NCBI GenBank assembly: GCA_902615855.1 | Contig: CACMQN010000001.1 | Span: 81,592-145,591 of the forward strand | Direction of reading: 5' to 3' | From: an uncultured Candidatus Actinomarina sp. | GTDB lineage: Bacteria > Actinomycetota > Acidimicrobiia > Actinomarinales > Actinomarinaceae | DNA length: 64,000 nt | Program-made: the position numbers and the translations under genes | The notes under the pieces: model-generated | Seen by the model: the letters and a program-made list of their open reading frames with translations, nothing else | What the model was told of the DNA's origin: nothing | Databases searched by the model: none | Shown here: piece after piece, positions 3,436-39,612 of the stretch | Numbering within the stretch: the first letter of the stretch is position 1 | Layout: each line of letters begins with the position of its first letter

Positions 3436-3945
3436 ATGTACGAAAAAAAAATTTTTAGAAGTAACTTAAAAAAAGTTGATTACAAAGAATTTAATCTATC
3501 GAATAAAAATCAAAAATTTATATCAAAATTAATAGAAAGAAAAAAAATATGTACATATATTCCATTGGACTCTGAACTAAATATCAATTTATTCTTAAAT
3601 ACATTTTTAGAAATTCAAACAACTTTTCTTGATGATAATGAGTTGAATGTTTGTCTTTTGAAAGAACCTTTTGTAATCAACAAACTTAAAATTATGGAAC
3701 CACAAAATATAGAGATAGCTAACAGTACTGAAATATTTTTTGTACCAGGATTGGCATTTTCAAAATCTGGAGTACGACTCGGTAGGGGAAAGGGACTATA
3801 TGACAGACTTTTAGCAAGATATCCAAATTCAATAAAGGTAGGAATATGTTCAAGTTTAAATCTTTATGATAAGTTACCCCAAGAATCACACGATATACTA
3901 ATGGATTATGTTCTCACAGAGAACGAAAATTTTAAAATACATTAA
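3436..3945 (+). CDS. 5-formyltetrahydrofolate cyclo-ligase family protein
   Basis: C-terminal VPGLAFSKSGVRLGRGKGLYDRLL matches the family signature (G-x-G-x-G-x-YD-R). Confidence 0.7.
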   Translation: MYEKKIFRSNLKKVDYKEFNLSNKNQKFISKLIERKKICTYIPLDSELNINLFLNTFLEIQTTFLDDNELNVCLLKEPFVINKLKIMEPQNIEIANSTEIFFVPGLAFSKSGVRLGRGKGLYDRLLARYPNSIKVGICSSLNLYDKLPQESHDILMDYVLTENENFKIH

Positions 3946-3956
3946 AATTACAAACT

Positions 3957-4997
3957 ATGGATATAAGCATCAATGTTGGTTATTTTGGACCTCATATTTC
4001 AGAAGAGAAAGATTTAATAAAAAAATTAGACGATATAGGAGTAACTTGTGTCTGGACGGCTGAAGCTTATGGTTTCGATGCAGTAACACCTCTTGCATAT
4101 TTTTCCGCTTTGACTGAGAAGATGAATATTGGTTCAGGGATTATGCAAATTCCTGCAAGAACACCAGCAATGACAGCAATGACAGCTGTAACACTTGATC
4201 AAATGTCTAAAGGAAGATTTAGATTAGGTTTAGGTGTTTCAGGTCCACAGGTTGTGGAAGGTTGGCACGGTGTACCATATGGAAAGCCACTTAAAAAAAC
4301 TAGAGAATATGTAGAACTAGTTCGAAAAATTATTAGCAGGGATGGAAAAGTTGAACATCATGGCGATTATTATGATTTACCTTTAGAAGGTGATGGGACA
4401 ACAGGTTTAGGTAAGCCACTTAAGCTAATTGAGCAACCGTTCAGAAGTGAAATTCCAATATATTTAGCTGCAGTTGGATTGAAAAACGTAGAACTAACAG
4501 CCGAAATTGCGGAAGGATGGTTACCGTTTATGTACTCACCAATTAAGGGTGAGGATATCTATAAAGAATCTCTAAATAATGGATTCAAAAAATCTGGTGA
4601 CTCTGATAAAAAAAATAAATTTGAAATTGTTACAACTGTTTTTGGTCGTGTTTGCGAAGAGGATGAAATTGATCAATATCTATATCCCGCACGAAATATT
4701 TATACGCTATATGTTGGAGGTATGGGCGCAAAATCAAAAAACTTCTATTACAACTTATTTTGTGAATATGGGTATGAAGATATTGCAGATGAACTTCAAA
4801 ATCTTTATTTGAGCGGTAATAAAAAAGAATCTGAAGAACTTTTTCCAAAAGAGTTGTTAAATGAACTAACACTTGTAGGTACCAAAAAAGACATAGAAAA
4901 GAAATTGGAAACCTGGAAAGAAAGTAACATAACTGAGATATCTCTCTCGCTTCCAATTGATTTTGAAACGGTTAAATTTATAAAAGAATTATTGTGA
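3957..4997 (+). CDS. LLM-class (luciferase-like) flavin/F420-dependent oxidoreductase
   Basis: 346 aa with a luciferase-like TIM-barrel pattern (VWTAEAYGFDAVT, RFRLGLGVSGPQVVEGWHG). The cofactor (F420 or FMN) cannot be decided by eye. Its TGA stop overlaps the GTG start of the next gene (GTGA at 4994..4997). Confidence 0.7.
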   Translation: MDISINVGYFGPHISEEKDLIKKLDDIGVTCVWTAEAYGFDAVTPLAYFSALTEKMNIGSGIMQIPARTPAMTAMTAVTLDQMSKGRFRLGLGVSGPQVVEGWHGVPYGKPLKKTREYVELVRKIISRDGKVEHHGDYYDLPLEGDGTTGLGKPLKLIEQPFRSEIPIYLAAVGLKNVELTAEIAEGWLPFMYSPIKGEDIYKESLNNGFKKSGDSDKKNKFEIVTTVFGRVCEEDEIDQYLYPARNIYTLYVGGMGAKSKNFYYNLFCEYGYEDIADELQNLYLSGNKKESEELFPKELLNELTLVGTKKDIEKKLETWKESNITEISLSLPIDFETVKFIKELL

Positions 4998-6337
4998 AAA
5001 TTCTTTTAACATCTTTTTATGATTTAGGTAAACAACCAAAAATTATCGCTGAAATTGTTGATAAGTATAAATCTGAAAATATTGAATTCGATATTGTTGA
5101 CTTTTCAATTGATAATCCTGAAATAAATATAGATCATTATGATGTACTTGGTATATATGCACCAATGCATACTGCAACTGTTTTATCTATTGAATTTTTA
5201 AAGAACAAAACATTGCCAAATAAAGTATTTACATTTGGTCTTTATGGTTCTGTACTTGAAGATTTTAACTCATCAATCAAACACATTAGCAATATTGAAA
5301 ATGGAGAGTTAGATTCATTTTTAGAGGTAAATAAAAATAAATTATTCTCACTAAAAAACAATATACCAAATAGAGACATTCTTCCCGATATATCAAATTA
5401 TGCCCATCTAGTAAACGGATCTTCAAACTTGATAGCTGGATCAGTTGAAACAACCTATGGCTGTAAACACTCTTGCACACATTGTCCAATACCAATCTCA
5501 TTTAACGGTAATTTTAAGACATACAGTTTAGAAAAAATATTACTTGATGTTGAAAACCAAGTTAACTCTGGTGCAATGCACATATCATTTAATGATCCGG
5601 ATTTTTTTAATGGTCCAATCCATGCTTTAAAAATACTTGAAAACCTTAAATCAAAATTTCCTAAAGTGACTTATGATTCAACAATTAAAGTAGAGCACAT
5701 AATTAAGTATGAAAAGTACTTTAAAGAGCTTTCTTCTTTAAATATGATATTTGTTATATCTGCATTTGAAACTACAAACAATGAAGTTTTAAGCATTTTA
5801 GAAAAAAATCATTCAAGTACTGATTTGTCCAACGCGATAGAAATATCACAAACAAATAATATTGATATCCGTCCAACTTGGATGCCTTTTTCTCCATGGA
5901 CAAATCAAAATGATTTAATTGACATAATTAATTTAATCGAAAATTATAAACTTAGAGAAACTGTTGACCCTATTCAATTAACTATCAAATTATTGATTCC
6001 CAAGCATTCACTCATTCTCCAAAGATCAGAAATCAAAAGATATTTAAAGGATTATGATAAAAATTCATTGAGTTACATGTGGGATTATAAAAATGAAGAA
6101 GTAAATAAATTACAAGTATCTCTTTTTAAATATTTACTAGATACTCCTGACTTGGATGAGCACAGTCAATATCTAGGTATGGTGAAAATTATTGAAAATA
6201 TGACACAATCTAATTTGAAATTAGATTCAAATTACAGTTATAAAAATGTACCAAAATTATCAGAAACTTGGTTTTGTTGTGCAGAGCCAAGTCAGATACA
6301 ACTTGATAGAATTAAAACAAATACAGCTTTGATATGA
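4994..6337 (+). CDS. radical SAM protein with C-terminal CCAEP tail
   Basis: CxxxCxxC cluster motif in YGCKHSCTHCPIP. Rossmann-like N-terminal domain. C-terminal SETWFCCAEPSQ (Cys-Cys codons TGT TGT at 6275..6280). Matches my recollection of the curated CUAEP/CCAEP-tail radical SAM (seleno)protein family. Confidence 0.75.
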   Translation: MKILLTSFYDLGKQPKIIAEIVDKYKSENIEFDIVDFSIDNPEINIDHYDVLGIYAPMHTATVLSIEFLKNKTLPNKVFTFGLYGSVLEDFNSSIKHISNIENGELDSFLEVNKNKLFSLKNNIPNRDILPDISNYAHLVNGSSNLIAGSVETTYGCKHSCTHCPIPISFNGNFKTYSLEKILLDVENQVNSGAMHISFNDPDFFNGPIHALKILENLKSKFPKVTYDSTIKVEHIIKYEKYFKELSSLNMIFVISAFETTNNEVLSILEKNHSSTDLSNAIEISQTNNIDIRPTWMPFSPWTNQNDLIDIINLIENYKLRETVDPIQLTIKLLIPKHSLILQRSEIKRYLKDYDKNSLSYMWDYKNEEVNKLQVSLFKYLLDTPDLDEHSQYLGMVKIIENMTQSNLKLDSNYSYKNVPKLSETWFCCAEPSQIQLDRIKTNTALI

Positions 6338-6840
6338 CAGAAGTAACTAATGAAGATATAAACGTATCTACTTGGAAAATTCCAAGCCCACTTGGCATCA
6401 TTGGAAGTCATGCAGAAGGTGAGTTCAATGGTATGACTGCTAGCTGGATTACTCAAGTAAGTATGGAGCCAGCTCTTATTGGAGTTGGCATTGACAATAA
6501 AAGTGTCACTTTTGACTTAATGAATAGGAGTGAATATTTTACATTAAATATGTTTTCACCAGAATATACAAAAGTCTTCGTAAAATTTTCAAAACCTGCT
6601 GAGTACTCAGAAGGCTTTTTAAATAAAGAGCCAATAACTTTAACGAAAAACTCAGTTCCAATATTTGATAATGCAACAGTATGGTTTGAGCTCAAAACTG
6701 ATCAAAAAATTAATTTAGGAACTCACACTTTTTTTATTGGTGAGATAATTGATTGTAAAACACTTAACCCAGATGAAAGGGTTGCTTACATGGGGGACAC
6801 TAGGATGAAATATGGCGGTGTTCCTCGAGGTGGGCATTAG
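6334..6840 (+). CDS. flavin reductase-like FMN-binding (split-barrel) protein
   Basis: GMTASWITQVSMEPALIGVGI pattern typical of the flavin reductase domain. ATGA start/stop overlap with the radical SAM gene. Confidence 0.7.
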   Translation: MTEVTNEDINVSTWKIPSPLGIIGSHAEGEFNGMTASWITQVSMEPALIGVGIDNKSVTFDLMNRSEYFTLNMFSPEYTKVFVKFSKPAEYSEGFLNKEPITLTKNSVPIFDNATVWFELKTDQKINLGTHTFFIGEIIDCKTLNPDERVAYMGDTRMKYGGVPRGGH

Positions 6841-6913
6841 TTCAAATTAATTTAATATCTTAGAATCTATCATTACTAATCCTTGATTTATAATTAAACA
6901 TGAAAGGAATTAT

Positions 6914-7450
6914 TTGAAATTAAAAAAAGGAGATTCAATTAATGAATTAACTCTACCTTCTGTAGATGGTTCGACATTTAATCTTGAAACAATAAAAGGA
7001 AAGAAAGCTATGATATCTTTCTATAGATATTCTTCATGTCCATTTTGTCATTTACGAATAAATGAAATTATTTCTAAAAAAAGTGAATTCGGAGAGAATT
7101 TTGTTCCAATTGCAATATTTGATTGTGACTTTGATGATTTAGTAAAAAATTCAAAAAAACATGATGGTGAAATAACAATTCTCTGTGATGATGATCGTAT
7201 ATATTTTGATAAGTTTGAGGTTCAAAACAGTTTCCTCAGATTTTTAGTTGGTATAACAATTAGAGTAGATCGCTTTTTAAAAGCCATTTTAAAAGGATAT
7301 AACCCAGCTTCTAATATGAGTGGTGCATTTCTAGGATTACCAGCAGATATACTTATTGATGAAAATGGGATTGTTGAAAAGGCATTTTACGGATCTCATA
7401 CAGCTAGTCATATACCTTTGAACGAAGTTGTTCTGTTCTCAAAAAGCTAA
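6914..7450 (+). CDS. thioredoxin-fold AhpC/TSA (redoxin)-like protein
   Basis: FYRYSSCPFC redox motif in a peroxiredoxin-like context. TTG start; the ATG at 6900 runs into a stop after 5 codons. Confidence 0.55.
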   Translation: MKLKKGDSINELTLPSVDGSTFNLETIKGKKAMISFYRYSSCPFCHLRINEIISKKSEFGENFVPIAIFDCDFDDLVKNSKKHDGEITILCDDDRIYFDKFEVQNSFLRFLVGITIRVDRFLKAILKGYNPASNMSGAFLGLPADILIDENGIVEKAFYGSHTASHIPLNEVVLFSKS

Positions 7451-7478
7451 AATATTAATTATTGAACAGTAAAGACGA

Positions 7479-8327
7479 TTAACTTCTACTTTTATATATT
7501 GCGTAAAAACCCACAAGTATAGAACTTATCAAGAAGTAGCTCAAAGCAACAATCGTAATGATATTTAACCCTAGTAATGATGCTACAGCAGCTGCTATTG
7601 GGAAATTTTGTAATGTACCCTCAGCAATGATTCCTTTTCTGTCTTCATCACTAATTTTTGCTATTTTTGATACAAGATTAATTACTACGAATATTGTGAT
7701 CAGATTTAAAACTACAAAAATAAATGATGATTTGAAAATATCCACAAGAACATCATTTAATTCTATTGGTACACCTATAGCAAGAATTAATGTAATAACA
7801 GTAAATAGTTTTTTAATATTTGGTTGGGAGTTAGTTGCTTTCTCCGGGAAATAATATTTTATAATCATCCCAATAATTACTGGAATTAAAACAAGATATA
7901 GTAACTCTATTAATAATTCTGTTGAGTCAATTTCTACTTGTACGCCAACTTTATCATTAAATATAGACGCAACATTTAACCAAAAAGGTATAGTTGCAAA
8001 GGCAATAAGTTGAGTCACGATTGTGAGTGATGTGGTAAGAGCAACATTGCCTTTCATTAATGATGAATACATTGAAGATATATGACCACCCGGTGCACAC
8101 ATTATTACAATTATTCCAATTGCTACTGATTGACTATCAATGAACAAACTTGTAACTATTCCAACAATCGGTAAAAGTGTAACTTGAATTAAAAGCCCTA
8201 CAATTGAGCTTTTAGAATTTGTTATTAAGCTTTTAAAACTTTCAATATCTAAGTCAGTACCAACCCCTATCATAAGGAGTGGAATTAGGTAAGGTACTAA
8301 ATCTAAAAAAAATGAATTAATTTCCAT
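7479..8327 (-). CDS. bile acid:sodium symporter (BASS/SBF) family transporter
   Basis: About 9 TM segments. CAPGGHISSMYSSLMKGNVALTTSLT resembles the BASS signature block. Confidence 0.6.
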   Translation of the reverse strand: MEINSFFLDLVPYLIPLLMIGVGTDLDIESFKSLITNSKSSIVGLLIQVTLLPIVGIVTSLFIDSQSVAIGIIVIMCAPGGHISSMYSSLMKGNVALTTSLTIVTQLIAFATIPFWLNVASIFNDKVGVQVEIDSTELLIELLYLVLIPVIIGMIIKYYFPEKATNSQPNIKKLFTVITLILAIGVPIELNDVLVDIFKSSFIFVVLNLITIFVVINLVSKIAKISDEDRKGIIAEGTLQNFPIAAAVASLLGLNIITIVALSYFLISSILVGFYAIYKSRS

Positions 8328-8351
8328 TTAATTAATATTATTAGAAAAATA

Positions 8352-8462
8352 ATGAAATGTATTAAATGTAAACATAAATGGAAAAGAACAAAACTAACTG
8401 AGTATGTCTCATTTTTATCGCAATGTCCAAAATGTAAAAGTAGAATAATTCTAAGGTATTAA
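8352..8462 (+). CDS. 36-aa double-CxxC zinc-ribbon microprotein (not in ORF track)
   Basis: ATG at 8352. Translation MKCIKCKHKWKRTKLTEYVSFLSQCPKCKSRIILRY has CxxC ... CxxC spaced like a zinc ribbon. The TAA stop (8460..8462) shares one base with the ATG of the methyltransferase (8462). Confidence 0.45.
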   Translation: MKCIKCKHKWKRTKLTEYVSFLSQCPKCKSRIILRY

Positions 8463-9154
8463 TGAAAAAAGCAATTTATTACATTCAATCATCATTTGTT
8501 TTATTTATATTTGCACCGATAGCTCGATTGATTAGTAAATCTTGGTATGAAAAAAAGATTCTTCCAAACACAATTAATAGGGGATGTTCGTCTAAGCCAA
8601 CAATGTATCAAAGAAAAAAAGTTATACCTGGAGCATCTGGTGAAGTTCTTGAAATAGGAATTGGACCAGGTATAAATATACAATTTTATGATCCTACTAA
8701 AGTAACTAAAATTATTGGAGTAGATCCTTCTGCAGAGTTAAATAAGATTGCACAAAAAAATGCCGACAAAGTAAATATTCCAATCGATTTTCTAATCACA
8801 ACAGCTGAGGAAATTCCACTTCCTGATAATTCTATTGATACTGTAATTTCAACATATACTCTCTGTTCTATTCCAAACCCATCACTTTCACTTAAAGAGA
8901 TCTATAGAGTTCTAAAACCTGAAGGTAAATTCTTATTCTGTGAGCACGGTATTGCTCCATCAAAAGGTGTCGCAATGTTCCAAAACGGTATTGATTTTTT
9001 CTGGCCTGCTATTGCTGGAGGATGTCATTTAAATAGAGATATGCCTTCGTTATTGAAGAGTAATGATTTTAATTTACAAGAATTAGATGCAATGTACTTA
9101 CCAGGCACACAACGCTTTTTAGGATATAACTATTGGGGTGTAGCTACAACTTAG
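8462..9154 (+). CDS. class I SAM-dependent methyltransferase (type 11) with N-terminal TM helix
   Basis: Motif I VLEIGIGPGIN, post-I acidic GVDPS, and the downstream YRVLKPEGKFLFCEH block. Confidence 0.75.
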   Translation: MKKAIYYIQSSFVLFIFAPIARLISKSWYEKKILPNTINRGCSSKPTMYQRKKVIPGASGEVLEIGIGPGINIQFYDPTKVTKIIGVDPSAELNKIAQKNADKVNIPIDFLITTAEEIPLPDNSIDTVISTYTLCSIPNPSLSLKEIYRVLKPEGKFLFCEHGIAPSKGVAMFQNGIDFFWPAIAGGCHLNRDMPSLLKSNDFNLQELDAMYLPGTQRFLGYNYWGVATT

Positions 9155-10050
9155 AAATCTTTTATTGAAAGAATCGCTTCAACGCAAGCATTTGGTTGAT
9201 CTTCTTGTAAAAAATGTCCGGCATTTTGAATTGTTACATGAGGCATGTCTTTGCACCCAGGAATTAACTTATAAAATGAATTTTCAACACCAGAAAATAT
9301 TGGGTCCTTATCACTAAATGCGCATAAAAATGGTTTTTTCCATTCTCTTAATATTTTCCAGGCTTCTTTATTTGGTTCCGCACTTGGAGTTCTAGGTGTC
9401 CCTGGAACTAAGTTTGGAAATTGTCTAACTCCTTGTTTGTGATCATCATCTGGAAACGGAGCATTGTATGCAGCAAGGGCATTTTCATCTATTCCTTTTG
9501 TCGTCCCATTTCTTACCTGTCCGCCAACATGAAGGTCTGGTTTTATCTGTAAAAATTCACGAAACACGGCAAACCCTTCGCTTAAAGGAGCTTTGCCAGT
9601 TGGCAGTCCTGTATTTGCAGCAACAATTTTTTCAAATCTATCGCCATACTTTGCCGCTAGTCTTAAACCTATCAAGCCACCCCAGTCTTGACAAAAAAGT
9701 GTAATATTTTTTAAATCAGTATTCTCAATAAATTGTGACATCCAATCTACAAATCCTTCATAGGAATAGTTATATCTCACTGAAAATTTATCAGATTTTC
9801 CAAATCCAGGTAAATCAGGAACAACTACTCGGTATCCATTCTCTTTCAATGGATCGATCATGTTTCTGTATAAATATCCCCAAGTAGGATTCCCATGTAA
9901 AAGAAGAACACATTCATCACTAGTTGAATTTTCATCAACAAAATGAATATCCAATTCTCCAAATTCTGATGTTACAGTTGTGAAATTTTCTTTATATTCC
10001 CAATCACTTAGATTTTCAAATAAAGTTAAATCTGTTTTTAAAACTGACAT
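9151..10050 (-). CDS. haloalkane dehalogenase-like alpha/beta hydrolase
   Basis: LLLHGNPTWGYLYRNMI, nucleophile elbow FCQDWGG, C-terminal NAGHFLQED. Strongly resembles DhlA-type (HLD-I) enzymes as recalled. Substrate is not provable from sequence. Confidence 0.65.
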   Translation of the reverse strand: MSVLKTDLTLFENLSDWEYKENFTTVTSEFGELDIHFVDENSTSDECVLLLHGNPTWGYLYRNMIDPLKENGYRVVVPDLPGFGKSDKFSVRYNYSYEGFVDWMSQFIENTDLKNITLFCQDWGGLIGLRLAAKYGDRFEKIVAANTGLPTGKAPLSEGFAVFREFLQIKPDLHVGGQVRNGTTKGIDENALAAYNAPFPDDDHKQGVRQFPNLVPGTPRTPSAEPNKEAWKILREWKKPFLCAFSDKDPIFSGVENSFYKLIPGCKDMPHVTIQNAGHFLQEDQPNACVEAILSIKDF

Positions 10051-10135: not shown

Positions 10136-10765
10136 ATGATGAGAAAAACTATCAATAAGTCTCTTCCATATATTGTTGGAATAATTATCGGCATCGTAAG
10201 TTTTTTACCATTTACAAGACCAACATCTACAGCCGCATTCCTAACTGGTTTTGGGAAAGATGCTATTAAACAGTGGAATTATTATCTTGATTACGGATTA
10301 GAGTCTCAAAATATTTGGCAAAGGGCTTATGTTTCATTATTAGGATTACTACCTAGCGCTAGTCCCGAAGTTATTTATCTGCAGACAAGTTTTGATGACG
10401 GGGGAGAGTCACTGTCTGGTAATTGCAGCTACACACTATCAGGAGAAGTTCCTGATGCACGTTACTGGAGTTATGCAATTTATGGAAATGATAATTATTA
10501 TCTACAAGATCCTAATAGCTTATTTGATGAACCAACTTTTGATGATTTGTTTGCTCAAGTTACAAATGGAAGCGAGCTTACATCGATAAGTGCTGAAAAT
10601 TACATGATAAAAATAGATAATAATCTAATTAATCAAAATGGAACATTAAGTCATTTTGGAAATGATTTCACCTTAATTTATAGAATTTACGGACCTAACT
10701 TAAATTATTATGAAAATCCAATATCGATTCCTGTCGCAAGCATTATCAATGAAGGTTGTAAATGA
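10136..10765 (+). CDS. DUF1214-like membrane-anchored protein
   Basis: N-terminal TM helix. ARYWSYAIYG and LIYRIYGPN resemble DUF1214 blocks. Confidence 0.4.
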   Translation: MMRKTINKSLPYIVGIIIGIVSFLPFTRPTSTAAFLTGFGKDAIKQWNYYLDYGLESQNIWQRAYVSLLGLLPSASPEVIYLQTSFDDGGESLSGNCSYTLSGEVPDARYWSYAIYGNDNYYLQDPNSLFDEPTFDDLFAQVTNGSELTSISAENYMIKIDNNLINQNGTLSHFGNDFTLIYRIYGPNLNYYENPISIPVASIINEGCK

Positions 10766-11301
10766 AAAGTTGGACTATAAAAATTTCAATAGTTGCTATG
10801 ATCACCCACGTTTTTTTAATTTTTATGGGTCCATATATAGTTATGAATCAATTGGATAGGAATATTGCTGATGCTATCGAAAATCCCTTCGACGGCTGTG
10901 AGGATACTTATGACGGTATAATCGGATATTTAGATCAGGTTTGTATCTCTAAAAGATCCTCAACAAGAATGCCAAATTATGATTTTATGTACACCATGTG
11001 CAGATATGACTTAGCTAATGGGGATTTATTTGTATCTATGCCCGTACCAGAAGATGAACGTTACTGGGTTGTACATGTGCACAATAACAATACAACTGTT
11101 GAGTTTAAAATTAATAATTTACAAATAGAAAATGAAAGGTATGAATTTTTGGTAACAAGCTCAAATAACCAAAATGAAGAAATAAAAACTATAAAAACAA
11201 CAAATAAAGGAACAGTTTTTTGGAGACTATTAGTTAATACAGCAGATGAGATCTCTAAATTAGATGAGTTTAGAAGGACTACAGTTTGTGAATACAGATA
11301 A
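10762..11301 (+). CDS. DUF1254-like membrane-anchored protein
   Basis: N-terminal TM helix. DLFVSMPVPEDERYWVVHVHNNNT resembles the DUF1254 core. ATGA overlap with the upstream gene. Confidence 0.35.
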   Translation: MKSWTIKISIVAMITHVFLIFMGPYIVMNQLDRNIADAIENPFDGCEDTYDGIIGYLDQVCISKRSSTRMPNYDFMYTMCRYDLANGDLFVSMPVPEDERYWVVHVHNNNTTVEFKINNLQIENERYEFLVTSSNNQNEEIKTIKTTNKGTVFWRLLVNTADEISKLDEFRRTTVCEYR

Positions 11302-12526
11302 TAACTACAATCCTATTGATTTATCAAAAAGTTTTTTAACAAAAAAAACATTGCCTAATCAGGTAAGTATTCAAGAGGGTTTCAATGTTGAGTTGTTTGA
11401 AGTTAATAAAAATTTAGCTTTCATAAAAAATTTTGGAAATGTAGCTGCTTTTAAAGATGATACATCTGCATTGTTAATAGATACAGGTATGGGAGTTTCA
11501 TCTGTTCAAGTTGTAAGTAAATTAAAGGAATGGGGAATTGAAAATGTGGAATTTATTATTTATACCCATGGACATGTAGATCACGTTACTGGTACTGATT
11601 ACATCATTAATGCATTTGAGAATAGCAACACAGAAGTTATTGGTCATAAAAATATTGTTAATAGGTTTGATCGCTATAAAAAAACTATTGGATATAACGG
11701 TATTATTAACCAAAGACAGTTTGGATTACCTTCTCCGGTTTTTCCTAATGAATTTACTTATCCTGATACAACATACGATGATAGTTATGAACTTGAATTT
11801 AACAATTCCGTACTGAAGTTGTTTCACGGGAAAGGTGAAACTGATGACGCAACCTATATTTATTCAGAAAAAGACAATGCTCTATTCACAGGTGATTTTT
11901 TTATATGGTCCTTACCGAATGCTGGAAATCCATCCAAATCTCAAAGATATGTGGGTTCGTGGGGAGAAGTGCTTAAAGAAATGTCTAAATTAAATTCGGA
12001 ATATCTTTTTCCTGGTCATGGTCCATTGATCAAAGGAAAAAAAGAAATTACTAAAGTACTTCTTGATACAAGTAATTGTATGTTGTGGATTGAGGACAAT
12101 GTTTTATCATTGATGAATAGTGGACATTCTCTTCGAGAAATTCATTCAAAATTATCACTTCCTCCTGAATTTCAACAGCCATATTTAGTTTCTGTATATG
12201 ATGACTTCAAATTTCTAATTAATTCTGTATGGAGACAATATGGAGGTTGGTACTCAGGAACTCCATCGGAATTAAAACCTCCTGCTCTTGATGAAATAGG
12301 AAAAACCTATCTTGACATGGCTGGAGGAGAAGATAATTTACTTGAATTCTTAAACTCATTAGTTTCTTCAGAAAAATATAAAGAAGCGTCTGTTATTGTT
12401 GACGCCGTATATACAGTAAACAAAGAGTTATTTAGTGAGATTAAAAAAGAGATTTATTTTAATTTATCTGAACAAGAAACTTCATTAATGGCAAAAGGTA
12501 TTTATAAATTTGATCTTGATTCATGA
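11264..12526 (+). CDS. MBL-fold metallohydrolase, alkyl/aryl-sulfatase-like
   Basis: HxHxDH motif (YTHGHVDHVTG) with later His/Asp ligands (FPGHGP). Start is uncertain: ATG 11264 overlaps the upstream gene by 38 nt, and the in-frame GTG at 11288 is an alternative. Confidence 0.65.
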   Translation: MSLEGLQFVNTDNNYNPIDLSKSFLTKKTLPNQVSIQEGFNVELFEVNKNLAFIKNFGNVAAFKDDTSALLIDTGMGVSSVQVVSKLKEWGIENVEFIIYTHGHVDHVTGTDYIINAFENSNTEVIGHKNIVNRFDRYKKTIGYNGIINQRQFGLPSPVFPNEFTYPDTTYDDSYELEFNNSVLKLFHGKGETDDATYIYSEKDNALFTGDFFIWSLPNAGNPSKSQRYVGSWGEVLKEMSKLNSEYLFPGHGPLIKGKKEITKVLLDTSNCMLWIEDNVLSLMNSGHSLREIHSKLSLPPEFQQPYLVSVYDDFKFLINSVWRQYGGWYSGTPSELKPPALDEIGKTYLDMAGGEDNLLEFLNSLVSSEKYKEASVIVDAVYTVNKELFSEIKKEIYFNLSEQETSLMAKGIYKFDLDS

Positions 12527-13042
12527 TTAAAGGTCATGAATTACACTAGTAACAACACCCCAGATTTGTGCTTCACTTTTTCCATTCAACTCTATAGGCT
12601 CATAGTCTTCATTCTCAGGTTGCAAGACAACTGATGATCTTTTTTTAATATATCTTTTTACTGTTAGCTCACCATCAATTATTGCTATTACCACATTTCC
12701 ATTTTCGGCTTTGATGCTTTTATCGACTACCAAAATATCATTTGGGAATATTCCAGCGTTTATCATTGAATTTCCTGATGCCCTTACCAAAAATGTTGAT
12801 GCAGGATGTTTTACTAGATATTGGTTGAGGTCAATCTTGTCTTCTAAGTAGTCATCTGCAGGGGATGGGAAGCCTGCTGCAACTCGGTCTCCGTATAGAG
12901 GAATTTCGTAAAGGCCTTTACTTACTATTTCTGAAATGTATTTAACTTTACTTTCGGGTACGCGAATCGCTTTAGTTGCCTCGCCATACTTGCCTTGACC
13001 TCTAGGCCTTCCTGCTCCTTTTCTTGCTCCACCTTTTGGCAT
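12527..13042 (-). CDS. umuD: UmuD-like S24 self-cleaving peptidase with extended basic N-terminus
   Basis: Aligns by eye to E. coli UmuD (PLYGDRVAAGFPSPADDYLEDKIDLNQYL, ASGNSM Ser, TVKR Lys). It carries about 35 extra N-terminal residues, MPKGGARKGAGRPRGQGK... Confidence 0.8.
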   Translation of the reverse strand: MPKGGARKGAGRPRGQGKYGEATKAIRVPESKVKYISEIVSKGLYEIPLYGDRVAAGFPSPADDYLEDKIDLNQYLVKHPASTFLVRASGNSMINAGIFPNDILVVDKSIKAENGNVVIAIIDGELTVKRYIKKRSSVVLQPENEDYEPIELNGKSEAQIWGVVTSVIHDL

Positions 13043-13065
13043 AAAAATGTCTTTCTTTTATCTTA

Positions 13066-13083
13066 GAATAGTGTACAGTATTC
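13066..13083. promoter_or_regulatory. 18-nt imperfect palindrome GAATAGTGTACAGTATTC in the umuD-like/umuC divergent promoter region
   Basis: 16 of 18 positions are self-complementary. It overlaps a TAGAAT -10-like hexamer (13064..13069). It has no GAAC-N4-GTTC core. Confidence 0.4.
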
Positions 13084-13100
13084 AAAGAAATAAATAAAGA

Positions 13101-14366
13101 ATGAAAAATAAAATTTTTGCTTTAGTCGATTGTAATAACTTTTACGCATCTTGTGAGAGGGTGTTTAATCCAAAACTGGAAGGAAAACCTATCGTTGTTC
13201 TCTCAAACAACGATGGATGTATTGTTGCAAGATCAAATGAGGCAAAAGCGTTAGGCATTCCAATGGGTGCTCCACTATTTAAATATGAACAATTGATAAA
13301 GAGAAACAATGTCCATGTATTTTCATCGAACTATACATTTTATGGAGACATGTCAGCAAGAGTAATGACATCTTTACGATCAATAGTTGGAGACATCGAA
13401 ATCTATTCAATTGATGAAGCTTTTTTAGATATTAGCAAGTTTTATTATTGCGACTTAACGGAGACAGCGAATGAAATACGGAGACTAATAAAGCAGTGGA
13501 CAGGGATACCAATCTCGATTGGCATTGGACCCTCAAAAACCCTGGCAAAAGCTGCAAACAGACAAGCAAAAAAATATGAGGAATCAAATGTCTTTGATAT
13601 ACGTGAAGAGTCAGAGAGAGTACGAGTTCTAAAAGACCTCGAACTAGAAGATATATGGGGTATCTCAACAAGATGGGGTAGAAGACTAAGAAAAATTGGT
13701 ATCAATTCAGCATATGAACTCTCAACAGGAGATCCAAGACAGATACGAAAGACTCTGAGCATTGTAGGAGAGAGAATCTATCATGAGCTAAATGGCATAT
13801 CATGTATGCAAATTGAAGAAGTTAAAAATAAGAAAAACATAATTTCTTCAAAGTCGTTTGGGAAAAAAGTAACAAAAGTATATGAACTTGAAGAAGCTGT
13901 TTCAACATACGTTGCAAGAGCTTGTGAAAAGTTACGAGCTCAGAATTCAAGAGCTGGAGGTATTCACGTATTTTTAAGAACAAGTCCATTTATAGAAGAT
14001 GAAAGAAAATATAGCAATGGAATGAGCTCTTTCTTTACAATTCCAACTAGTAATACTTCAAAAATAATCAAAGAAGCGAAAAGATTAACAAATAAACTTT
14101 TTTTGCCAAATTATGAGTATCAGAAAATAGGCGTAATACTCTTGGATATATCTGATGCCAAATATGAACAGTTTAGCTTCTATGAGCATGAGAATTATGA
14201 GAGATCCGATATTCTCATGGATTCACTAGACCAGTTAAATGATAGATTTGGAAATGGAACTCTATTTATGGGAGCACAGGGAATTCAAAAAAACTGGAAA
14301 ATGCGAGCTGATAGAAAATCAGCTGCTTACACAACCAAATTGATAGACATTCCTAAAGTTGATTAA
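13101..14366 (+). CDS. umuC: Y-family DNA polymerase, UmuC-like (Pol V catalytic subunit)
   Basis: [51 protein letters not shown] and YSIDEAF are near-identical in pattern to the E. coli UmuC N-terminus. Confidence 0.9.
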
Positions 14367-32487: not shown

Positions 32488-33558
32488 ATGGATAAAGACA
32501 GGGCAAAAAAACTAGATACAGTTTTTGATCAAATAGAAAAACAATTCGGTGAAGGATCATTAATGAAACTTGGTGCCGATAACATCAAAAAAATACCAGC
32601 TATTTCTACAGGAGCACTTTCAATTGATTTAGCTTTAGGTATTGGTGGAGTTCCAAAAGGTAGAGTCATAGAAATTTATGGACCAGAAGCTTCAGGTAAA
32701 ACTACATTATCCCTTCATGTTGCAGCTGAAGCACAAAAAGCTGGGGGTGTAGCAGCATTTATTGATGCTGAACATGCTCTTGATCCCGTATATGCCAGAG
32801 CATTAGGCGTTGATGTTGATGAACTTCTTGTTTCTCAACCAGATACCGGCGAACAAGCGCTTGAAATTGCAGACATGTTAATTCAATCTGGAGGTGTAGA
32901 TCTAGTAGTTATTGACTCTGTTGCAGCATTAGTTCCAAAAGCTGAGATTGAAGGAGAAATGGGTGATACTCATGTTGGTCTTCAGGCACGATTGATGTCA
33001 CAAGCCTTGCGTAAATTAACTGGTTCAATCAATAAATCAGGTACAACTGTGATCTTTATTAACCAAATCCGTGAAAAAATTGGCGTTATGTGGGGATCTC
33101 CTGAAACAACCAGTGGTGGTAGAGCTCTTAAATTCTATTCATCTGTAAGGATTGATGTTAGAAGAATTGAAACATTAAAGGTTGGACCAGAACAAATAGG
33201 AAACCGTGTAAGAGCCAAGATCGTAAAAAATAAAGTTGCTCCACCTTTTAAGGAAGCAGAGTTTGATATTATGTTTGGTCAAGGTATATCCAGAGAAGGA
33301 AGCCTTTTAGATGTTGCAGTAGAGCACGGTATTGCTAGAAAAGCAGGAGCTTGGTTTACATATGATGAAGTTCAACTTGGTCAAGGTAAAGAGAATTCTA
33401 AGCGTTTTCTAAGAGAGAATCCCGACCTTGCTTTACAGCTAGAGACAGATGTTTATAAAGCTGTTGGTCTTATTGAATCAGATGAAATTGAAGTTGTTGA
33501 AGATGAATCAACTGAAAATGAAGATGAATCTGCAGAAGAGACTAAAAACAAAAAATAA
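32488..33558 (+). CDS. recA: recombinase RecA
   Basis: [10 protein letters not shown] Walker [11 protein letters not shown], the L1/L2 regions and an acidic C-tail. AAGGAG RBS upstream. Confidence 0.98.
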
Positions 33559-35798: not shown

Positions 35799-36519
35799 AT
35801 CTTATATGTCAGGAACAGGCAATGATTTTATATGTACTGAATATGATCGAGACTTGTCAGATATAGAAATTATTTCAATTGTTAGTGACTCACTTTTTCC
35901 TATCGATGGAGTGATATTGGTAGAGGGTATAGATGATTCAACTGTGAAAATGCATTATTTTAATAATGACGGAACTCCTGCTGAACTATGTGTAAATGGT
36001 GTACGTTGTACAGCAAAGTTTGCAGTAGACAATAACTTAGTAAATACTAAAAATTTAATTGTCAGAGCTCCAGTTGGTGATATAAAAGCATTTGTTGAAA
36101 ATAATTATGTAAAAATTGAAGCACCTTTTCCTACGACTGGTGGAAGTATCGAAATTGATAGTTACATATGTACGACTAGTGAAGTTGGAAATCCTCATCT
36201 TATGGTTGAAGTCGATGATGTAGAGAGATTTGATCTCGATAAATTTTCAGTAAATGCCAGAAAACTAGATGTATTTTCTAATGGTATAAATATTGAAATC
36301 TTTTCGGTTGTTGAACGCAAATTTATTTACGCAAGAGTAAACGAAAGGGGGGTTGGAGAGACAGACGCATGTGGTTCTGGAGCTTTAGCTTTGTTTACTT
36401 ATTTAAGAGAAATTAATAAAGTTGATGATAATGCAGTTGTTTTATATCCTGGTGGAGAGCTTGAACTATCTTATGAAAATGAAAAGTTGTATTTAAAAGG
36501 TGAAGTTACATATCTCTAA
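35788..36519 (+). CDS. dapF: diaminopimelate epimerase
   Basis: MSGTGNDFI, catalytic Cys contexts NGVRC and ETDACGSGA, GNPH. Confidence 0.85.
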   Translation: MVNESYMSGTGNDFICTEYDRDLSDIEIISIVSDSLFPIDGVILVEGIDDSTVKMHYFNNDGTPAELCVNGVRCTAKFAVDNNLVNTKNLIVRAPVGDIKAFVENNYVKIEAPFPTTGGSIEIDSYICTTSEVGNPHLMVEVDDVERFDLDKFSVNARKLDVFSNGINIEIFSVVERKFIYARVNERGVGETDACGSGALALFTYLREINKVDDNAVVLYPGGELELSYENEKLYLKGEVTYL

Positions 36520-37093
36520 TTAACGAAACAACTTTTCCTATAGGTTGTATATTTTCATTCACGAGAATTTTTTCATAGTTTTTATTTGCAGGTACTAGAT
36601 ATTGTTTACCCTGAATATTTTTGAGAAATTTAATAGTACCTTCTGAATTATTTATAAGAAATGCACCTATATCTCCATTTTTAATTGGTTCATTTTTATT
36701 AATAATAACTAAATCCTTTTCATGAATTCCCTCATCGATCATCGAATCTCCCGATACTGATAATGCAAATAGATTAGATTTTTCATTAGTATCTGGATAA
36801 TTCACAGTTCCTATAACGTTTTCTTCAGCCATAAGTAAAGATCCTGCAGCAATTTCTCCTAGTATCGGAATTTTCTTATTCGAAAGTTGGTTGTTTACAG
36901 TTAAAGCACGAGATTTTTTATAGTTTTTTTGGAGTAATCCTGATTGAATTAGTTTTTCAAGGTGATATTGAACTGTGCTTGTTGATTTAAGACTCACACC
37001 TTCGCAAATTTCTCTTACTGAAGGTGCAAATCCATTTTTTTCGATAAATATATTTATATAATTTAAAATATTTTTTTGTTTTTCAGACACCAC
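36506..37093 (-). CDS. lexA: SOS repressor LexA
   Basis: N-terminal winged-helix (GFAPSVREI..STSTVQYHLEKL), Ala-Gly cleavage site (GEIAAGS), VSGDSM Ser and IKFLK Lys. GTG start. Confidence 0.9.
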   Translation of the reverse strand: MVSEKQKNILNYINIFIEKNGFAPSVREICEGVSLKSTSTVQYHLEKLIQSGLLQKNYKKSRALTVNNQLSNKKIPILGEIAAGSLLMAEENVIGTVNYPDTNEKSNLFALSVSGDSMIDEGIHEKDLVIINKNEPIKNGDIGAFLINNSEGTIKFLKNIQGKQYLVPANKNYEKILVNENIQPIGKVVSLIRDM

Positions 37094-37458: not shown

Positions 37459-37899
37459 ATGGTATGTCCTTTTTGCAATACAGAAGATACTGCGGTTGTA
37501 GATTCTAGAAAAAATGTCGAGGGTGACTCAATTAGAAGACGTAGAGAGTGTTCTGCATGCAATACAAGGTTTACAACATACGAAAAATCTGAAATCGAGC
37601 TTATAGTTAAAAAAAGAAATGGTAATTTAGAAGAATTTCAATACGAAAAATTATTTAGTGGTGTAGAAAATGCTTTTGGGGGCCAAGAATTAAGTGAAAA
37701 AAAATTAAAGAACCTTGTTGAGTCAATTTATCTTGAATTAAAAAAACATGGTAAGAGTATTGAAAGTAAAATTATTGGTGAAACTGTTCTTTCACATTTA
37801 AAAAATATTAATGAAGTCGCTTATCTTCGATTTGCCTCTGTTTATAAAGAATTTTCTGCTGTCTCGGACTTTGAAAAAGAAGCAGCAGAACTAAATTGA
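37459..37899 (+). CDS. nrdR: transcriptional repressor NrdR
   Basis: N-terminal zinc ribbon CPFC...CSAC and an ATP-cone domain. Confidence 0.9.
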   Translation: MVCPFCNTEDTAVVDSRKNVEGDSIRRRRECSACNTRFTTYEKSEIELIVKKRNGNLEEFQYEKLFSGVENAFGGQELSEKKLKNLVESIYLELKKHGKSIESKIIGETVLSHLKNINEVAYLRFASVYKEFSAVSDFEKEAAELN

Positions 37900-37902
37900 T
37901 TA

Positions 37903-38967
37903 TCAAGGTAATTTTCCTACATTTTCAACAATTTCTAAATAATTAGAACGTAATCTTAATAACGAGTTGTTAAAAAATACTGTCTCTGTTTCTTTGTTTA
38001 ATTTAATTGCACTAATAAGAGTCTCTGCAACGGAAATTTCATTGTTTCTTAATGAAGCAACTAATCTTCCATGCAATTCTTGAGCCGTAATTAAGGCTGA
38101 CTCCAATATTTTTTTATGTTCATTCAATTCATCTATTTCTGGCAAACTTTCTGCGTTGAGTGTACTTTTTGCTCCTATCTGTGATAACACGCTAGTTAAA
38201 TCGTCTACGTCTATAGATTGATTAATAGTTAATGTATCTTCATAAATTAATATATCAGAATGCATAATACGGTAAGTAAATAGTAGATCTAGATTTTGAA
38301 TAACTTGATAAAGAGAATTTAAAGAAATTTCAATCTCATTTGTACCCTCTATATCTCTTCCAGACAAATATGATTCATATTCTATAAGTGATGATTCTAT
38401 TGTTTGTAAATTAGCACTTGCATTAGAGATATCATATCTTGAATAGAATGGATCTGTAGCAATAATTATCAAATCAGGAATTTGATCAATAAAACTATTT
38501 GCATCTTTAGTAACATTTATTATGATATTTTCATTTTGAATTGATGCATTTCTATTGTTAATAAAAAATACAGTAACAAAACTAATAATAAAAAAAGTTG
38601 CAATTACAAATATTAATGGGCTCAACCATTGTCTTCTTTTTTCAATATCTGTCCAAATTTTTTTAATTTGAGAAGTGACTTTTAAAGGAGTAAATATTTC
38701 TGTATTTGCCTCAGGCTTGAATTCTTCTATCTTCTCATCTGTTACATTGTTTGTTATTTCATAAGTTAATTGTTGACTAAATCTTTCCGAATCATTTTCT
38801 TCGTTAATATCCTCTATCGCACTTGAAGCTTGAAGATTATCCATTTCTTTGATTATGTCTGGAGTCTGAATGATTGTTGTGTCAGTTTCAAAACCTAATA
38901 CATCAAGAATTTTTATTTTATTTGATGTTTTTGCTTTCTTTATAAAAAGATAATCTCTAATATTCAT
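37903..38967 (-). CDS. hypothetical single-pass membrane protein
   Basis: One TM helix (WLSPLIFVIATFFIISFVTVFFI) and no recognised motifs. I prefer the internal ATG at 38967 because the longer ORF (to 39096) overlaps dut by 113 nt. Confidence 0.35.
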   Translation of the reverse strand: MNIRDYLFIKKAKTSNKIKILDVLGFETDTTIIQTPDIIKEMDNLQASSAIEDINEENDSERFSQQLTYEITNNVTDEKIEEFKPEANTEIFTPLKVTSQIKKIWTDIEKRRQWLSPLIFVIATFFIISFVTVFFINNRNASIQNENIIINVTKDANSFIDQIPDLIIIATDPFYSRYDISNASANLQTIESSLIEYESYLSGRDIEGTNEIEISLNSLYQVIQNLDLLFTYRIMHSDILIYEDTLTINQSIDVDDLTSVLSQIGAKSTLNAESLPEIDELNEHKKILESALITAQELHGRLVASLRNNEISVAETLISAIKLNKETETVFFNNSLLRLRSNYLEIVENVGKLP

Positions 38968-38983
38968 CAATGAAAGGTTACCA

Positions 38984-39464: not shown

Positions 39465-39537
39465 GCGGAAGTAGCTCAGCTGGTAGAGCGTAACCTTGCC
39501 AAGGTTAAGGCCGCGGGTTCGAACCCCGTCTTCCGCT
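39465..39537 (+). tRNA. tRNA-Gly (GCC)
   Basis: Hand-folded cloverleaf: acceptor GCGGAAG/CTTCCGC, anticodon arm TAACC-TTGCCAA-GGTTA, T-loop TTCGAAC. No encoded CCA. Confidence 0.9.
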
Positions 39538-39541
39538 CACT

Positions 39542-39612
39542 GGCGACGTGGCGGAGTGGCTACGCAGAGGTCTGCAAAACCTTGTACACCGGTTCGATTC
39601 CGGTCGTCGCCT
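39542..39612 (+). tRNA. tRNA-Cys (GCA)
   Basis: Acceptor GGCGACG/CGTCGCC, anticodon arm GAGGT-CTGCAAA-ACCTT, T-arm ACCGG-TTCGATT-CCGGT. Lies 4 nt after tRNA-Gly. Confidence 0.9.

What the first reader, a model, noticed from the sequence alone, without database searches (positions are those of the whole stretch)
3957..7450. Translationally coupled LLM oxidoreductase, CCAEP-tail radical SAM and flavin reductase operon, with a CPFC redoxin downstream
Three genes are fused by start/stop overlaps: GTGA at 4994..4997 and ATGA at 6334..6337. This implies obligate co-expression and probably fixed stoichiometry. The middle protein has a CxxxCxxC radical SAM cluster (CKHSCTHC), a Rossmann-like N-domain and a C-terminal WFCCAEPSQ tail. 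I recall a curated family named CUAEP/CCAEP-tail radical SAM (seleno)protein, whose function is, to my knowledge, unknown. Its pairing with a luciferase-like (F420/FMN) oxidoreductase and an FMN split-barrel reductase suggests a self-contained redox module: an electron supply plus a radical enzyme acting on an unknown small molecule or cofactor. A thioredoxin-fold CPFC protein follows after a 73-nt gap. The window also holds a second LLM enzyme and a Ddn-type enzyme, so deazaflavin chemistry may be prominent here. This copy has Cys-Cys rather than Sec-Cys, even though a candidate selenoprotein sits elsewhere in the window.
Basis: partly seen in the sequence, partly recalled or inferred. Interest (0 to 1): 0.65.

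Follow-up and report, generated by a model that had tools for sequence, protein, structure and literature searches.

The report
Optional ArsL-like radical SAM gene
The three overlapping genes are real, but comparison with other genomes shows the unusual radical SAM enzyme is an optional gene sitting between two separately conserved flavin-type enzymes in a marine actinobacterium, not part of a fixed three-enzyme machine; its chemistry is still unknown and probably resembles the arsenic-carbon bond-forming enzyme ArsL.

Summary
ORFs 3957-4997 (F420-class LLM), 4994-6337 (radical SAM) and 6334-6840 (flavin reductase) overlap by GTGA and ATGA. A CPFC redoxin follows after 73 nt. The host is Candidatus Actinomarina.

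The middle protein carries the full CUAEP/CCAEP-tail signature (SETWFCCAEPSxxQ) and all 30 invariant family residues. It scores below NCBIfam's cut-off (373 vs 500 bits). ArsL is the closest characterised relative (hhalign E 1e-81).

The "self-contained redox module" reading fails its own refutation test:
- None of 80 homologous loci from other species has an adjacent LLM or flavin reductase. In 42 of them the neighbour is an ATP-grasp L-amino-acid ligase.
- LLM orthologues outside Actinomarinales stand alone.
- Within Actinomarinales the locus occurs as LLM-rSAM-reductase, as LLM-rSAM without the reductase, and as LLM-reductase without the rSAM.
- Gene overlaps are ordinary in this window, which is 94% coding.

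Best reading: this is a divergent Cys-Cys member of an uncharacterised sister family of ArsL. It probably alkylates a thiophilic atom held by C428-C429. Its position here is a lineage-specific juxtaposition. I rate it a new member of a known kind, of moderate interest.

The parts
3436..3945 (+). 5-formyltetrahydrofolate cyclo-ligase (MTHFS). It ends 11 nt before the LLM and is syntenic in nearly all Actinomarinales loci seen. It is probably the first gene of the same transcription unit.
   Evidence: TIGR02727 scores 91.2 bits against a cut-off of 84.9, and PF01812 also hits. The gene is conserved upstream in L001-3, L086-87, L092-94 and L096-99.
3957..4997 (+). F420-class luciferase-like (LLM) oxidoreductase. 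It is the constant gene of the locus.
   Evidence: TIGR03559 scores 416.4 bits against a cut-off of 335, and PF00296 scores 211 bits. The nearest solved structures are F420-dependent Mer enzymes (E 1.6e-15). Orthologues at about 52% identity stand alone in other Actinomycetota.
4994..4997 (+). GTGA overlap between the LLM stop codon and the radical SAM start codon.
   Evidence: Read directly from the sequence. The same 4-nt overlap is kept in L001-3, L084-87 and L096-99.
4994..6337 (+). CCAEP-tail radical SAM protein (447 aa). It has a Rossmann-like N-domain (residues 1-110), a radical SAM core and a C-terminal helical domain plus tail.
   Evidence: NF040546 scores 372.7 bits (cut-off 500) and NF040542 (ArsL) scores 200.8 bits. 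All 30 invariant columns of the family alignment A2 are present. The AF2 model has pLDDT 94.1. The top Foldseek match is AprD4, TM 0.68.
5462..5485 (+). CxxxCxxC [4Fe-4S]/SAM cluster motif (C157, C161, C164) in the family context GCxHxCxHCP.
6269..6289 (+). Family-defining tail W426-F-C428-C429-A-E-P. The second Cys is the position occupied by selenocysteine (TGA) in 25 of 80 homologues.
   Evidence: Tail residues have pLDDT of about 88-90 in the model.
6334..6337 (+). ATGA overlap between the radical SAM stop codon and the flavin reductase start codon.
   Evidence: Read from the sequence. It is kept in L001-3, L086-87 and L096-99. In L092-94 the reductase start overlaps the LLM stop directly (TAATG).
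6334..6840 (+). PF01613 split-barrel flavin reductase.
   Evidence: PF01613 scores 102 bits. Matches to named reductases (HpaC, StyB, RutF) are weak and below their cut-offs. It is absent after the rSAM in L084/85. It is present without the rSAM in L092-95, at 62% identity.
6914..7450 (+). AhpC/TSA-fold redoxin with CPFC at 7037-7048. It is the first gene of a variable island, not a constant partner of the rSAM.
   Evidence: PF00578 scores 48.9 bits. NF040769 (SelL-related) scores 49.8 bits against a cut-off of 120. It is absent in L001-3 and L084/85 and present in L095, which has no rSAM.
7479..9154 (.). Rest of the variable island: a BASS/SBF transporter (7479-8327, minus strand) and a class I methyltransferase (8462-9154, plus strand).
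   Evidence: PF01758 scores 96.6 bits and PF08241 scores 79.7 bits. Neither is specifically ACR3 or ArsM. The island's content differs between lineages.

Best explanation
Gene 4994-6337 encodes a divergent, Cys-Cys member of the CUAEP/CCAEP-tail radical SAM family, the sister family of the arsinothricin enzyme ArsL.

Shown:
- It has the [4Fe-4S]/SAM motif, a Rossmann-like N-domain of the type that does not bind cobalamin in AprD4 and ArsL homologues, and the invariant C-terminal ExWFC(C/U)AEP tail.
- In Actinomarinales it is an optional gene lying between an LLM and a flavin reductase. Each of those two genes occurs without it, and it occurs without the reductase.
- In other phyla its recurrent neighbour is an ATP-grasp L-amino-acid ligase.

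Inferred:
- Like ArsL, the enzyme uses the vicinal Cys428-Cys429 pair (Cys-Sec in about 30% of relatives) to hold a thiophilic atom near the cluster. That atom could be a metalloid, selenium or sulfur.
- It then transfers a carbon fragment of SAM onto that atom, most likely the 3-amino-3-carboxypropyl group.
- The product would be a non-proteinogenic amino acid, which the ligase condenses into a peptide in other lineages.
- The 4-nt overlaps with LLM and reductase reflect co-transcription in a very compact genome. They do not indicate a dedicated electron-supply module.
For: Family identity: tail and cluster motifs; all 30 invariant columns present; the CUAEP model outscores the ArsL model by 172 bits.

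Kinship to ArsL: the ArsL model scores 200.8 bits. hhalign between the CUAEP and ArsL profiles gives probability 100%, E 1.3e-81, over 390 columns. A true ArsL scores 345 bits on the CUAEP model.

ArsL chemistry and tail function: ArsL performs ACP transfer, and its tail cysteines bind As(III) (bioRxiv 10.1101/2024.02.01.577332; bioRxiv 10.64898/2026.04.29.721666).

Fold: the best match is AprD4. AprD4 and ArsL homologues do not bind cobalamin (PMC12931638).

Amino-acid product hint: an ATP-grasp_4 + LAL_C2 ligase lies within 150 nt on the same strand in 42 of 80 species loci. It occurs in both gene orders and across Actinomycetota, Chloroflexota, Acidobacteriota, Pseudomonadota and Planctomycetota.

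Not a module: 0 of 80 loci have an adjacent LLM or reductase. LLM orthologues stand alone. The locus occurs as LLM-reductase without rSAM and as LLM-rSAM without reductase. Overlaps are common in the window.
Against: - No biochemical data exist for any member of this family. Haft (2022) calls it uncharacterised.
- The tail has two Cys, not ArsL's three, and the profile alignment stops before both tails. Equivalence of the two tails is therefore positional only.
- There are no ars, sel or ligase genes in the window.
- The trio is the commonest Actinomarinales configuration and keeps its exact overlaps at 60-76% protein identity. A functional link with the LLM is therefore not excluded.
- Only the 80 most similar of at least 586 homologous loci were examined.
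Confidence: 0.45

Rival explanations
1. LLM, radical SAM enzyme and flavin reductase form one dedicated pathway in Actinomarina. The reductase and/or F420H2-LLM deliver electrons or a reduced cofactor to the radical enzyme, or they process its substrate or product. The overlaps fix the stoichiometry.
For: The trio keeps identical 4-nt overlaps in four Actinomarinales lineages at 61-76% rSAM identity, including the most frequently sampled one. The order makes F420 (PMC7771536). The radical SAM cluster needs a low-potential reductant.
Against: The three genes vary independently. The locus occurs as LLM-reductase without rSAM and as LLM-rSAM without reductase. No other phylum pairs the family with an LLM or a reductase. 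LLM orthologues stand alone elsewhere. The order is highly syntenic and compact, so conserved adjacency and overlaps are weak evidence.
Confidence: 0.2
2. The enzyme does canonical radical SAM chemistry. 5'-dA radical abstracts hydrogen from an unknown small molecule. The C-terminal Cys-Cys/Cys-Sec acts as a mobile redox-active pair (an H-atom or electron donor, like the Gly-Cys-Sec-Gly tail of thioredoxin reductase). A thiol-disulfide protein such as the CPFC redoxin re-reduces it.
For: A vicinal Cys-Sec pair in a C-terminal tail is a known redox device (established knowledge of mammalian thioredoxin reductase). Sec replaces Cys in 25 of 80 homologues. A CxxC redoxin follows the operon in several lineages. 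The nearest solved fold, AprD4, is a canonical 5'-dA enzyme.
Against: By sequence the closest characterised relative is ArsL, not AprD4: 12% identity to AprD4 against a profile E of 1e-81 to ArsL. The redoxin is absent from some rSAM-bearing loci and present in one that lacks the rSAM. The ligase partner is easier to explain if the product is an amino acid.
Confidence: 0.2
3. The enzyme is a cobalamin-dependent (class B-like) radical SAM methyltransferase. It methylates a metal or metalloid held by the Cys-Cys/Cys-Sec tail, by analogy with PhpK or HgcA.
For: The architecture is an N-terminal Rossmann-like domain plus a radical SAM core, and OxsB, MgmA, TsrM and TokK are among the structural matches. 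An invariant PMHTA motif lies in the N-domain. Haft links CU motifs to heavy-metal handling.
Against: HMM matches to B12-radical SAM families are 26 bits or less, against cut-offs of 250-650. The best structural match and the closest sequence relative (AprD4, ArsL) are the cobalamin-free exceptions.
Confidence: 0.05

Closest known systems
CUAEP/CCAEP-tail radical SAM (seleno)protein, NCBIfam NF040546 (function uncharacterised)
   Same: It has the same three-part architecture, the GCxHxCxHCP cluster motif and every invariant residue. The tail ExWFC(C/U)AEP(S/T)xxQ aligns to the end of the model (positions 466-467 of 468).
   Different: It scores 372.7 bits against the 500-bit cut-off, and the N-domain matches the model only weakly. 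It forms a tight, AT-rich Actinomarinales clade that is 60% or more identical internally but only about 37% identical to the next relatives. It lacks the ATP-grasp ligase neighbour seen in 42 of 80 other loci.
ArsL, arsinothricin biosynthesis radical SAM enzyme (RCCLKC-tail family, NF040542)
   Same: The two are homologous over about 390 residues, covering the N-domain, core and C-terminal domain (hhalign E 1e-81). Both end in a short C-terminal tail with a vicinal Cys pair. Both belong to the cobalamin-free, Rossmann-domain group.
   Different: The tail has two Cys rather than three, has a different sequence, and follows an extra helical insert of about 50 residues. The protein scores 200.8 bits against the 450-bit cut-off. 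There is no arsM or arsQ context. The substrate and the mode of SAM cleavage are unknown.
AprD4, radical SAM 1,2-diol dehydratase (PDB 6fd2)
   Same: It is the best structural match to the model (TM 0.68). It combines a cobalamin-free Rossmann-like domain with a radical SAM core.
   Different: Sequence identity is only 12%. AprD4 has no Cys-Cys/Cys-Sec tail. Its context is aminoglycoside biosynthesis.
Two-component flavin-dependent LLM monooxygenase plus PF01613 reductase systems (e.g. SsuD/SsuE-type logic)
   Same: An LLM and a PF01613 flavin reductase are adjacent and translationally coupled in Actinomarinales, including in loci without the rSAM.
   Different: The LLM scores as an F420-class enzyme (TIGR03559 above cut-off; nearest structures are Mer), not as an FMN-dependent monooxygenase. 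Its orthologues outside the order have no adjacent reductase.

Membership tests
CUAEP/CCAEP-tail radical SAM (NF040546) | Whole-protein HMM score at or above the curated cut-off (500 bits) | tested here: not met
   The score is 372.7 bits. Other tail-bearing relatives also fall short: P0121 417.7, L004 491.3, P0164 340.6. Typical members score 565-646.
CUAEP/CCAEP-tail radical SAM (NF040546) | C-terminal tail ExW[FY]C[CU][AS]EP | tested here: met
   S-E-T-W-F-C-C-A-E-P-S at residues 423-433. The motif is present in 79 of 80 homologous loci.
CUAEP/CCAEP-tail radical SAM (NF040546) | CxxxCxxC cluster motif and the family's invariant residues | tested here: met
   C157/C161/C164 and all 30 invariant columns of the 29-sequence alignment A2 are present.
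CUAEP/CCAEP-tail radical SAM (NF040546) | Better match to this family than to its nearest sister family | tested here: met
   372.7 bits (CUAEP) against 200.8 bits (ArsL). A true ArsL shows the reverse, 345 against 656.
ArsL / RCCLKC-tail radical SAM (NF040542) | HMM score at or above 450 bits | tested here: not met
   200.8 bits.
ArsL / RCCLKC-tail radical SAM (NF040542) | Three-cysteine RCCLKC tail that binds As(III) | tested here: not met
   The tail is WFCCAEP with two Cys, and there is no third conserved Cys outside the cluster motif.
ArsL / RCCLKC-tail radical SAM (NF040542) | Genomic association with arsM/arsQ or an ars operon | tested here: not met
   The nearby methyltransferase is generic (ArsM models score 55 bits or less, against cut-offs of 240-575). 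The transporter is BASS-type.
ArsL / RCCLKC-tail radical SAM (NF040542) | Cleaves SAM to methylthioadenosine plus an ACP radical or organometallic intermediate | not testable with these tools
   This needs anaerobic enzymology.
LLM class F420-dependent oxidoreductase, Rv3520c subfamily (TIGR03559) | HMM score at or above 335 bits | tested here: met
   416.4 bits. The nearest solved structures are F420-dependent Mer enzymes.
LLM class F420-dependent oxidoreductase, Rv3520c subfamily (TIGR03559) | Uses F420, and the host makes it | not testable with these tools
   Literature only: Actinomarinales encode F420 biosynthesis (PMC7771536). Cofactor use by this protein is untested.
Two-component FMN-dependent LLM monooxygenase system | The LLM belongs to an FMN-dependent monooxygenase subfamily | tested here: not met
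   FMN-type models (SsuD, RutA, SfnG, luciferase) score 23 bits or less.
Cobalamin-dependent (class B) radical SAM | Match to B12-binding radical SAM family models | tested here: not met
   The best such scores are 26 bits or less, against cut-offs of 250-650. Pfam reports only PF04055. Structurally it is closest to cobalamin-free AprD4.
SelL-related redox protein (NF040769), for the CPFC protein | HMM score at or above 120 bits | tested here: not met
   49.8 bits. It is a generic AhpC/TSA-fold redoxin (PF00578, 48.9 bits against a cut-off of 26).

The most novel reading that the evidence does not exclude
The CUAEP/CCAEP-tail enzymes are a second class of ArsL-type, non-canonical radical SAM enzymes. 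They would form a carbon-heteroatom bond (to Se, S, As or another soft atom held by the Cys-Cys/Cys-Sec tail) by 3-amino-3-carboxypropyl transfer. Together with the adjacent ATP-grasp ligase they would make an unknown family of peptide antimetabolites. In Actinomarina, one of the most abundant surface-ocean actinobacteria, the enzyme would be re-wired to F420/flavin enzymes to make or detoxify an organo-metalloid amino acid.
Probability: 0.2. Interest if true: 0.75.

Novelty: new member of a known kind. Interest (0 to 1): 0.4.

Why it matters
The family is curated but has no known function. It is the nearest relative of the only radical SAM enzyme known to build a C-As bond by ACP transfer, and about 30% of its members use selenocysteine at the key position.

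This work adds three things:
- The abundant marine Actinomarina carries a divergent Cys-Cys branch.
- The family's recurrent partner across five phyla is an L-amino-acid ligase, which gives a testable hypothesis that the product is an amino acid.
- The LLM/flavin-reductase pairing is a local accident of a compact genome, so experiments should not start from a three-protein redox module.

Tried and rejected
- A known cofactor maturase or other characterised family: rejected. No NCBIfam or Pfam model other than the CUAEP and ArsL models gives more than about 26 bits, apart from the generic Radical_SAM Pfam domain.
- An arsenic operon reading of the downstream island (redoxin, SBF transporter, methyltransferase): rejected. 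The transporter is BASS-type, the methyltransferase is generic, and the island varies independently of the rSAM.
- Riboswitch or other RNA control: none. Rfam finds only three tRNAs far away. The promoter and terminator scans were uninformative in this AT-rich DNA.
- Ligase or DUF169 elsewhere in the window: none by tblastn.
- Measuring the tail-to-cluster distance: not possible, because the coordinates of model m6f12063949f7 are not exposed.
- PDB sequence search for an ArsL or CUAEP structure: none. Only short cluster-motif matches were found.
- Second LLM in the window: not found.
- Literature: no paper besides Haft (2022) mentions CUAEP or CCAEP. The Actinomarinales genome paper does not mention radical SAM, arsenic or selenium.


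Full report
**1. What is in the sequence**

- 3957-4997, 346 aa.
- 4994-6337, 447 aa, GTG start.
- 6334-6840, 168 aa.
- 6914-7450, 178 aa, TTG start, after a 73-nt gap.

The GTGA and ATGA start/stop overlaps are present. HMM scans identify the proteins as follows:
- The first is an F420-class luciferase-like oxidoreductase (TIGR03559, 416 bits, cut-off 335).
- The second is a radical SAM protein. Its best model is the recalled CUAEP/CCAEP-tail family (NF040546, 372.7 bits, cut-off 500). The second-best is ArsL (NF040542, 200.8 bits).
- The third is a PF01613 flavin reductase.
- The fourth is an AhpC/TSA-fold redoxin with CPFC.

A 5-formyl-THF cyclo-ligase gene ends 11 nt upstream of the LLM. 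Close homologues are named Candidatus Actinomarina. That order is reported to synthesise F420 (PMC7771536).

**2. Is the middle protein a member of the family?**

A search of 1.8 billion cluster representatives found 592 relatives at E ≤ 1e-10. The Actinomarina proteins form one tight cluster, and the next relatives are only about 37% identical.

Most full-length relatives end in (S/T)ExW(F/Y)CCAEP(T/S)xxQ, or they stop at ...W(F/Y)C, which is the signature of an unread selenocysteine codon. In a 29-sequence alignment the window protein keeps all 30 invariant positions. These include C157/C161/C164, several histidines, E424, W426 and C428.

Several other tail-bearing relatives also score below the 500-bit cut-off, and a genuine ArsL scores 345 bits on the same model. 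So the score alone does not decide membership. The tail, and the 172-bit margin over the ArsL model, do. I file it as a divergent member.

**3. Relationship to ArsL and fold**

Profile-profile comparison of the family with four ArsL sequences gives probability 100% and E 1.3e-81 over 390 columns. This covers the N-domain, the core and the C-terminal domain, but it stops before both tails.

ArsL cleaves SAM non-canonically. It transfers the 3-amino-3-carboxypropyl group to arsenite, which is held by its three tail cysteines.

An AlphaFold2 model from the alignment is confident throughout, tail included (pLDDT 94.1, pTM 0.92). It shows a five-stranded Rossmann-like N-domain.

Foldseek places the model nearest AprD4 (TM 0.68), then OxsB, MgmA, TsrM and MiaB. 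A 2026 review states that AprD4 and ArsL homologues have Rossmann-like domains that do not bind cobalamin.

**4. Neighbourhoods in other phyla**

A scan of one genome per GTDB species returned the 80 most similar of at least 586 homologous loci, each with 10-kb flanks.
- tblastn with the window's LLM, reductase, redoxin, transporter and methyltransferase found no adjacent LLM or reductase in any locus.
- De novo clustering of flanking ORFs found one dominant neighbour, a protein of about 420 aa.
- It lies within 150 nt on the same strand in 42 of 80 loci.
- It is upstream in Actinomycetota, Chloroflexota, Planctomycetota and Blastocatellia. It is downstream in Pseudomonadota and other Acidobacteriota.
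- It is an ATP-grasp L-amino-acid ligase (PF13535, PF18603 LAL_C2, PF18130), with weak matches to DdaF and BacD.

DUF169 proteins accompany the gene in 13 loci. One Acidimicrobiia clade instead has an ABC ATPase and two ABC-2 permeases downstream. The tail's second position is TGA in 25 loci and Cys in 54 (57 including the three Actinomarina loci counted).

A rough NJ tree puts the Actinomarina clade next to ligase-linked Acidimicrobiales sequences. No ligase or DUF169 gene is in the window.

**5. Neighbourhoods within Actinomarinales**

The region is syntenic across the order (PNPase ... MTHFS-LLM ... S24 peptidase-ImuB), but the genes in the finding vary:

| Loci | Identity to window | Gene order |
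|---|---|---|
| Window; L086/87; L096-99 | L086/87: rSAM 76%; L096-99: LLM 68% | LLM-rSAM-reductase-redoxin |
| L001-3 | rSAM 61% | LLM-rSAM-reductase, no redoxin |
| L084/85 | rSAM 60%, LLM 72% | LLM-rSAM, then the S24 peptidase directly; no reductase |
| L092-94 | LLM 66% | MTHFS-LLM-reductase; no rSAM |
| L095 | LLM 59% | LLM-reductase-redoxin; no rSAM |

L092-94 come from contigs of up to 193 kb. There the LLM stop overlaps the reductase start (TAATG), and the reductase is 62% identical to the window's.

Outside the order, LLM orthologues of about 52% identity stand alone, with no rSAM, reductase or MTHFS beside them.

**6. Are the overlaps special?**

No. With longest-ORF starts, 14 of 38 same-strand neighbour pairs in the window overlap and 24 are 15 nt apart or less. 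Coding density is about 94%. The overlaps argue for co-transcription, as in most of this genome. They do not argue for a dedicated complex.

**7. Interpretation**

The identity of the radical SAM protein is secure, and its function is genuinely unknown.

The most economical mechanism is borrowed from its closest characterised relative. A tail Cys-Cys (Cys-Sec) pair would present a soft atom to a SAM-derived carbon fragment. The recurrent amino-acid ligase partner independently suggests that the product is an amino acid, which fits ACP transfer. This is inference, and I give it roughly 0.35-0.45.

The three-enzyme redox module is disfavoured, because each gene occurs without the others and the pairing is confined to one compact, syntenic order. 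It is not excluded, since the trio is the commonest local arrangement.

A redox-active tail in a canonical 5'-dA enzyme is a serious rival. A cobalamin-dependent methyl transfer is a minor one.

**8. Verdict**

- Observation: confirmed.
- Interpretation: partly supported. The family assignment holds; the module does not.
- Novelty: a new, divergent member of a known but uncharacterised family.
- Interest: moderate (0.4). It comes mainly from the ArsL kinship, the selenocysteine variants, the newly noted ligase partnership, and the abundance of the host in the surface ocean.

Noticed in passing
window 6914-9154: There is a variable island after the flavin reductase. It holds a CPFC redoxin, a BASS/SBF transporter (minus strand) and a class I methyltransferase. 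Its content differs between Actinomarinales lineages. L086/87 insert an arylsulfotransferase (PF05935), L096-99 lack the transporter, and L001-3 lack the whole island.
   Followed up: partly
window 9151-10050 (-): A haloalkane dehalogenase family protein (NF002043, 381 bits, cut-off 265) lies here. It is convergent with the methyltransferase and overlaps it by 4 nt. The gene is conserved in several Actinomarinales loci.
   Followed up: no
window 3436-4997: The 5-formyl-THF cyclo-ligase gene ends 11 nt before an LLM whose nearest solved relatives are F420-dependent methylene-H4MPT reductases (Mer). The pair is adjacent in every Actinomarinales locus that extends far enough upstream, but not in other Actinomycetota. 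This hints at a one-carbon/folate role for the LLM.
   Followed up: partly
window 10136-12526: A DUF1214/DUF1254 gene pair overlaps by 4 nt. It is followed by an MBL-fold protein with an alkyl-sulfatase dimerisation domain (PF14863).
   Followed up: no
window 12527-14366; 32488-33558; 36506-37093; 37459-37899: An SOS-type set is present: an S24 peptidase divergent from an ImuB-like Y-family polymerase (IMS + DUF4113), plus RecA, LexA and NrdR further along.
   Followed up: no
No second PF00296 LLM was found among the 46 ORFs scanned.
   Followed up: partly
window 37903-39096 (-), 41217-42389 (+): Two ORFs of about 390 aa have no Pfam match at E ≤ 1e-5. The 5' ends of ORFs 39496.. and 41217.. 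overlap tRNA genes (39465-39613, 41189-41263), so the true starts are probably further downstream.
   Followed up: no
L004 10001-13516 and 12 similar Acidimicrobiia loci: In one Acidimicrobiia clade the CCAEP-tail radical SAM gene has no ligase. An ABC ATPase follows 36 nt downstream, then two ABC-2 (SagH-like) permeases. This may be an export system for the product.
   Followed up: partly
L031, L039, L042, L050, L056, L079 and others: DUF169 (PF02596) proteins lie beside the radical SAM gene in 13 of 80 loci, including the ligase-less Poribacteria and Dormibacteraeota loci. They are a second recurrent partner of unknown function.
   Followed up: no
L030 11355-12203: A Cys-rich 282-aa ORF overlaps the 3' end of the radical SAM gene in the closest non-Actinomarina relative. 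A NifU-like gene lies just upstream of the ligase.
   Followed up: no
NCBIfam models NF040546 / NF040542: The two models cross-hit strongly. A true ArsL scores 345 bits on the CUAEP model, and CUAEP members score 200-309 bits on the ArsL model. Several proteins with a perfect CCAEP tail fall below the 500-bit cut-off, so automatic annotation leaves them as plain 'radical SAM protein'.
   Followed up: yes
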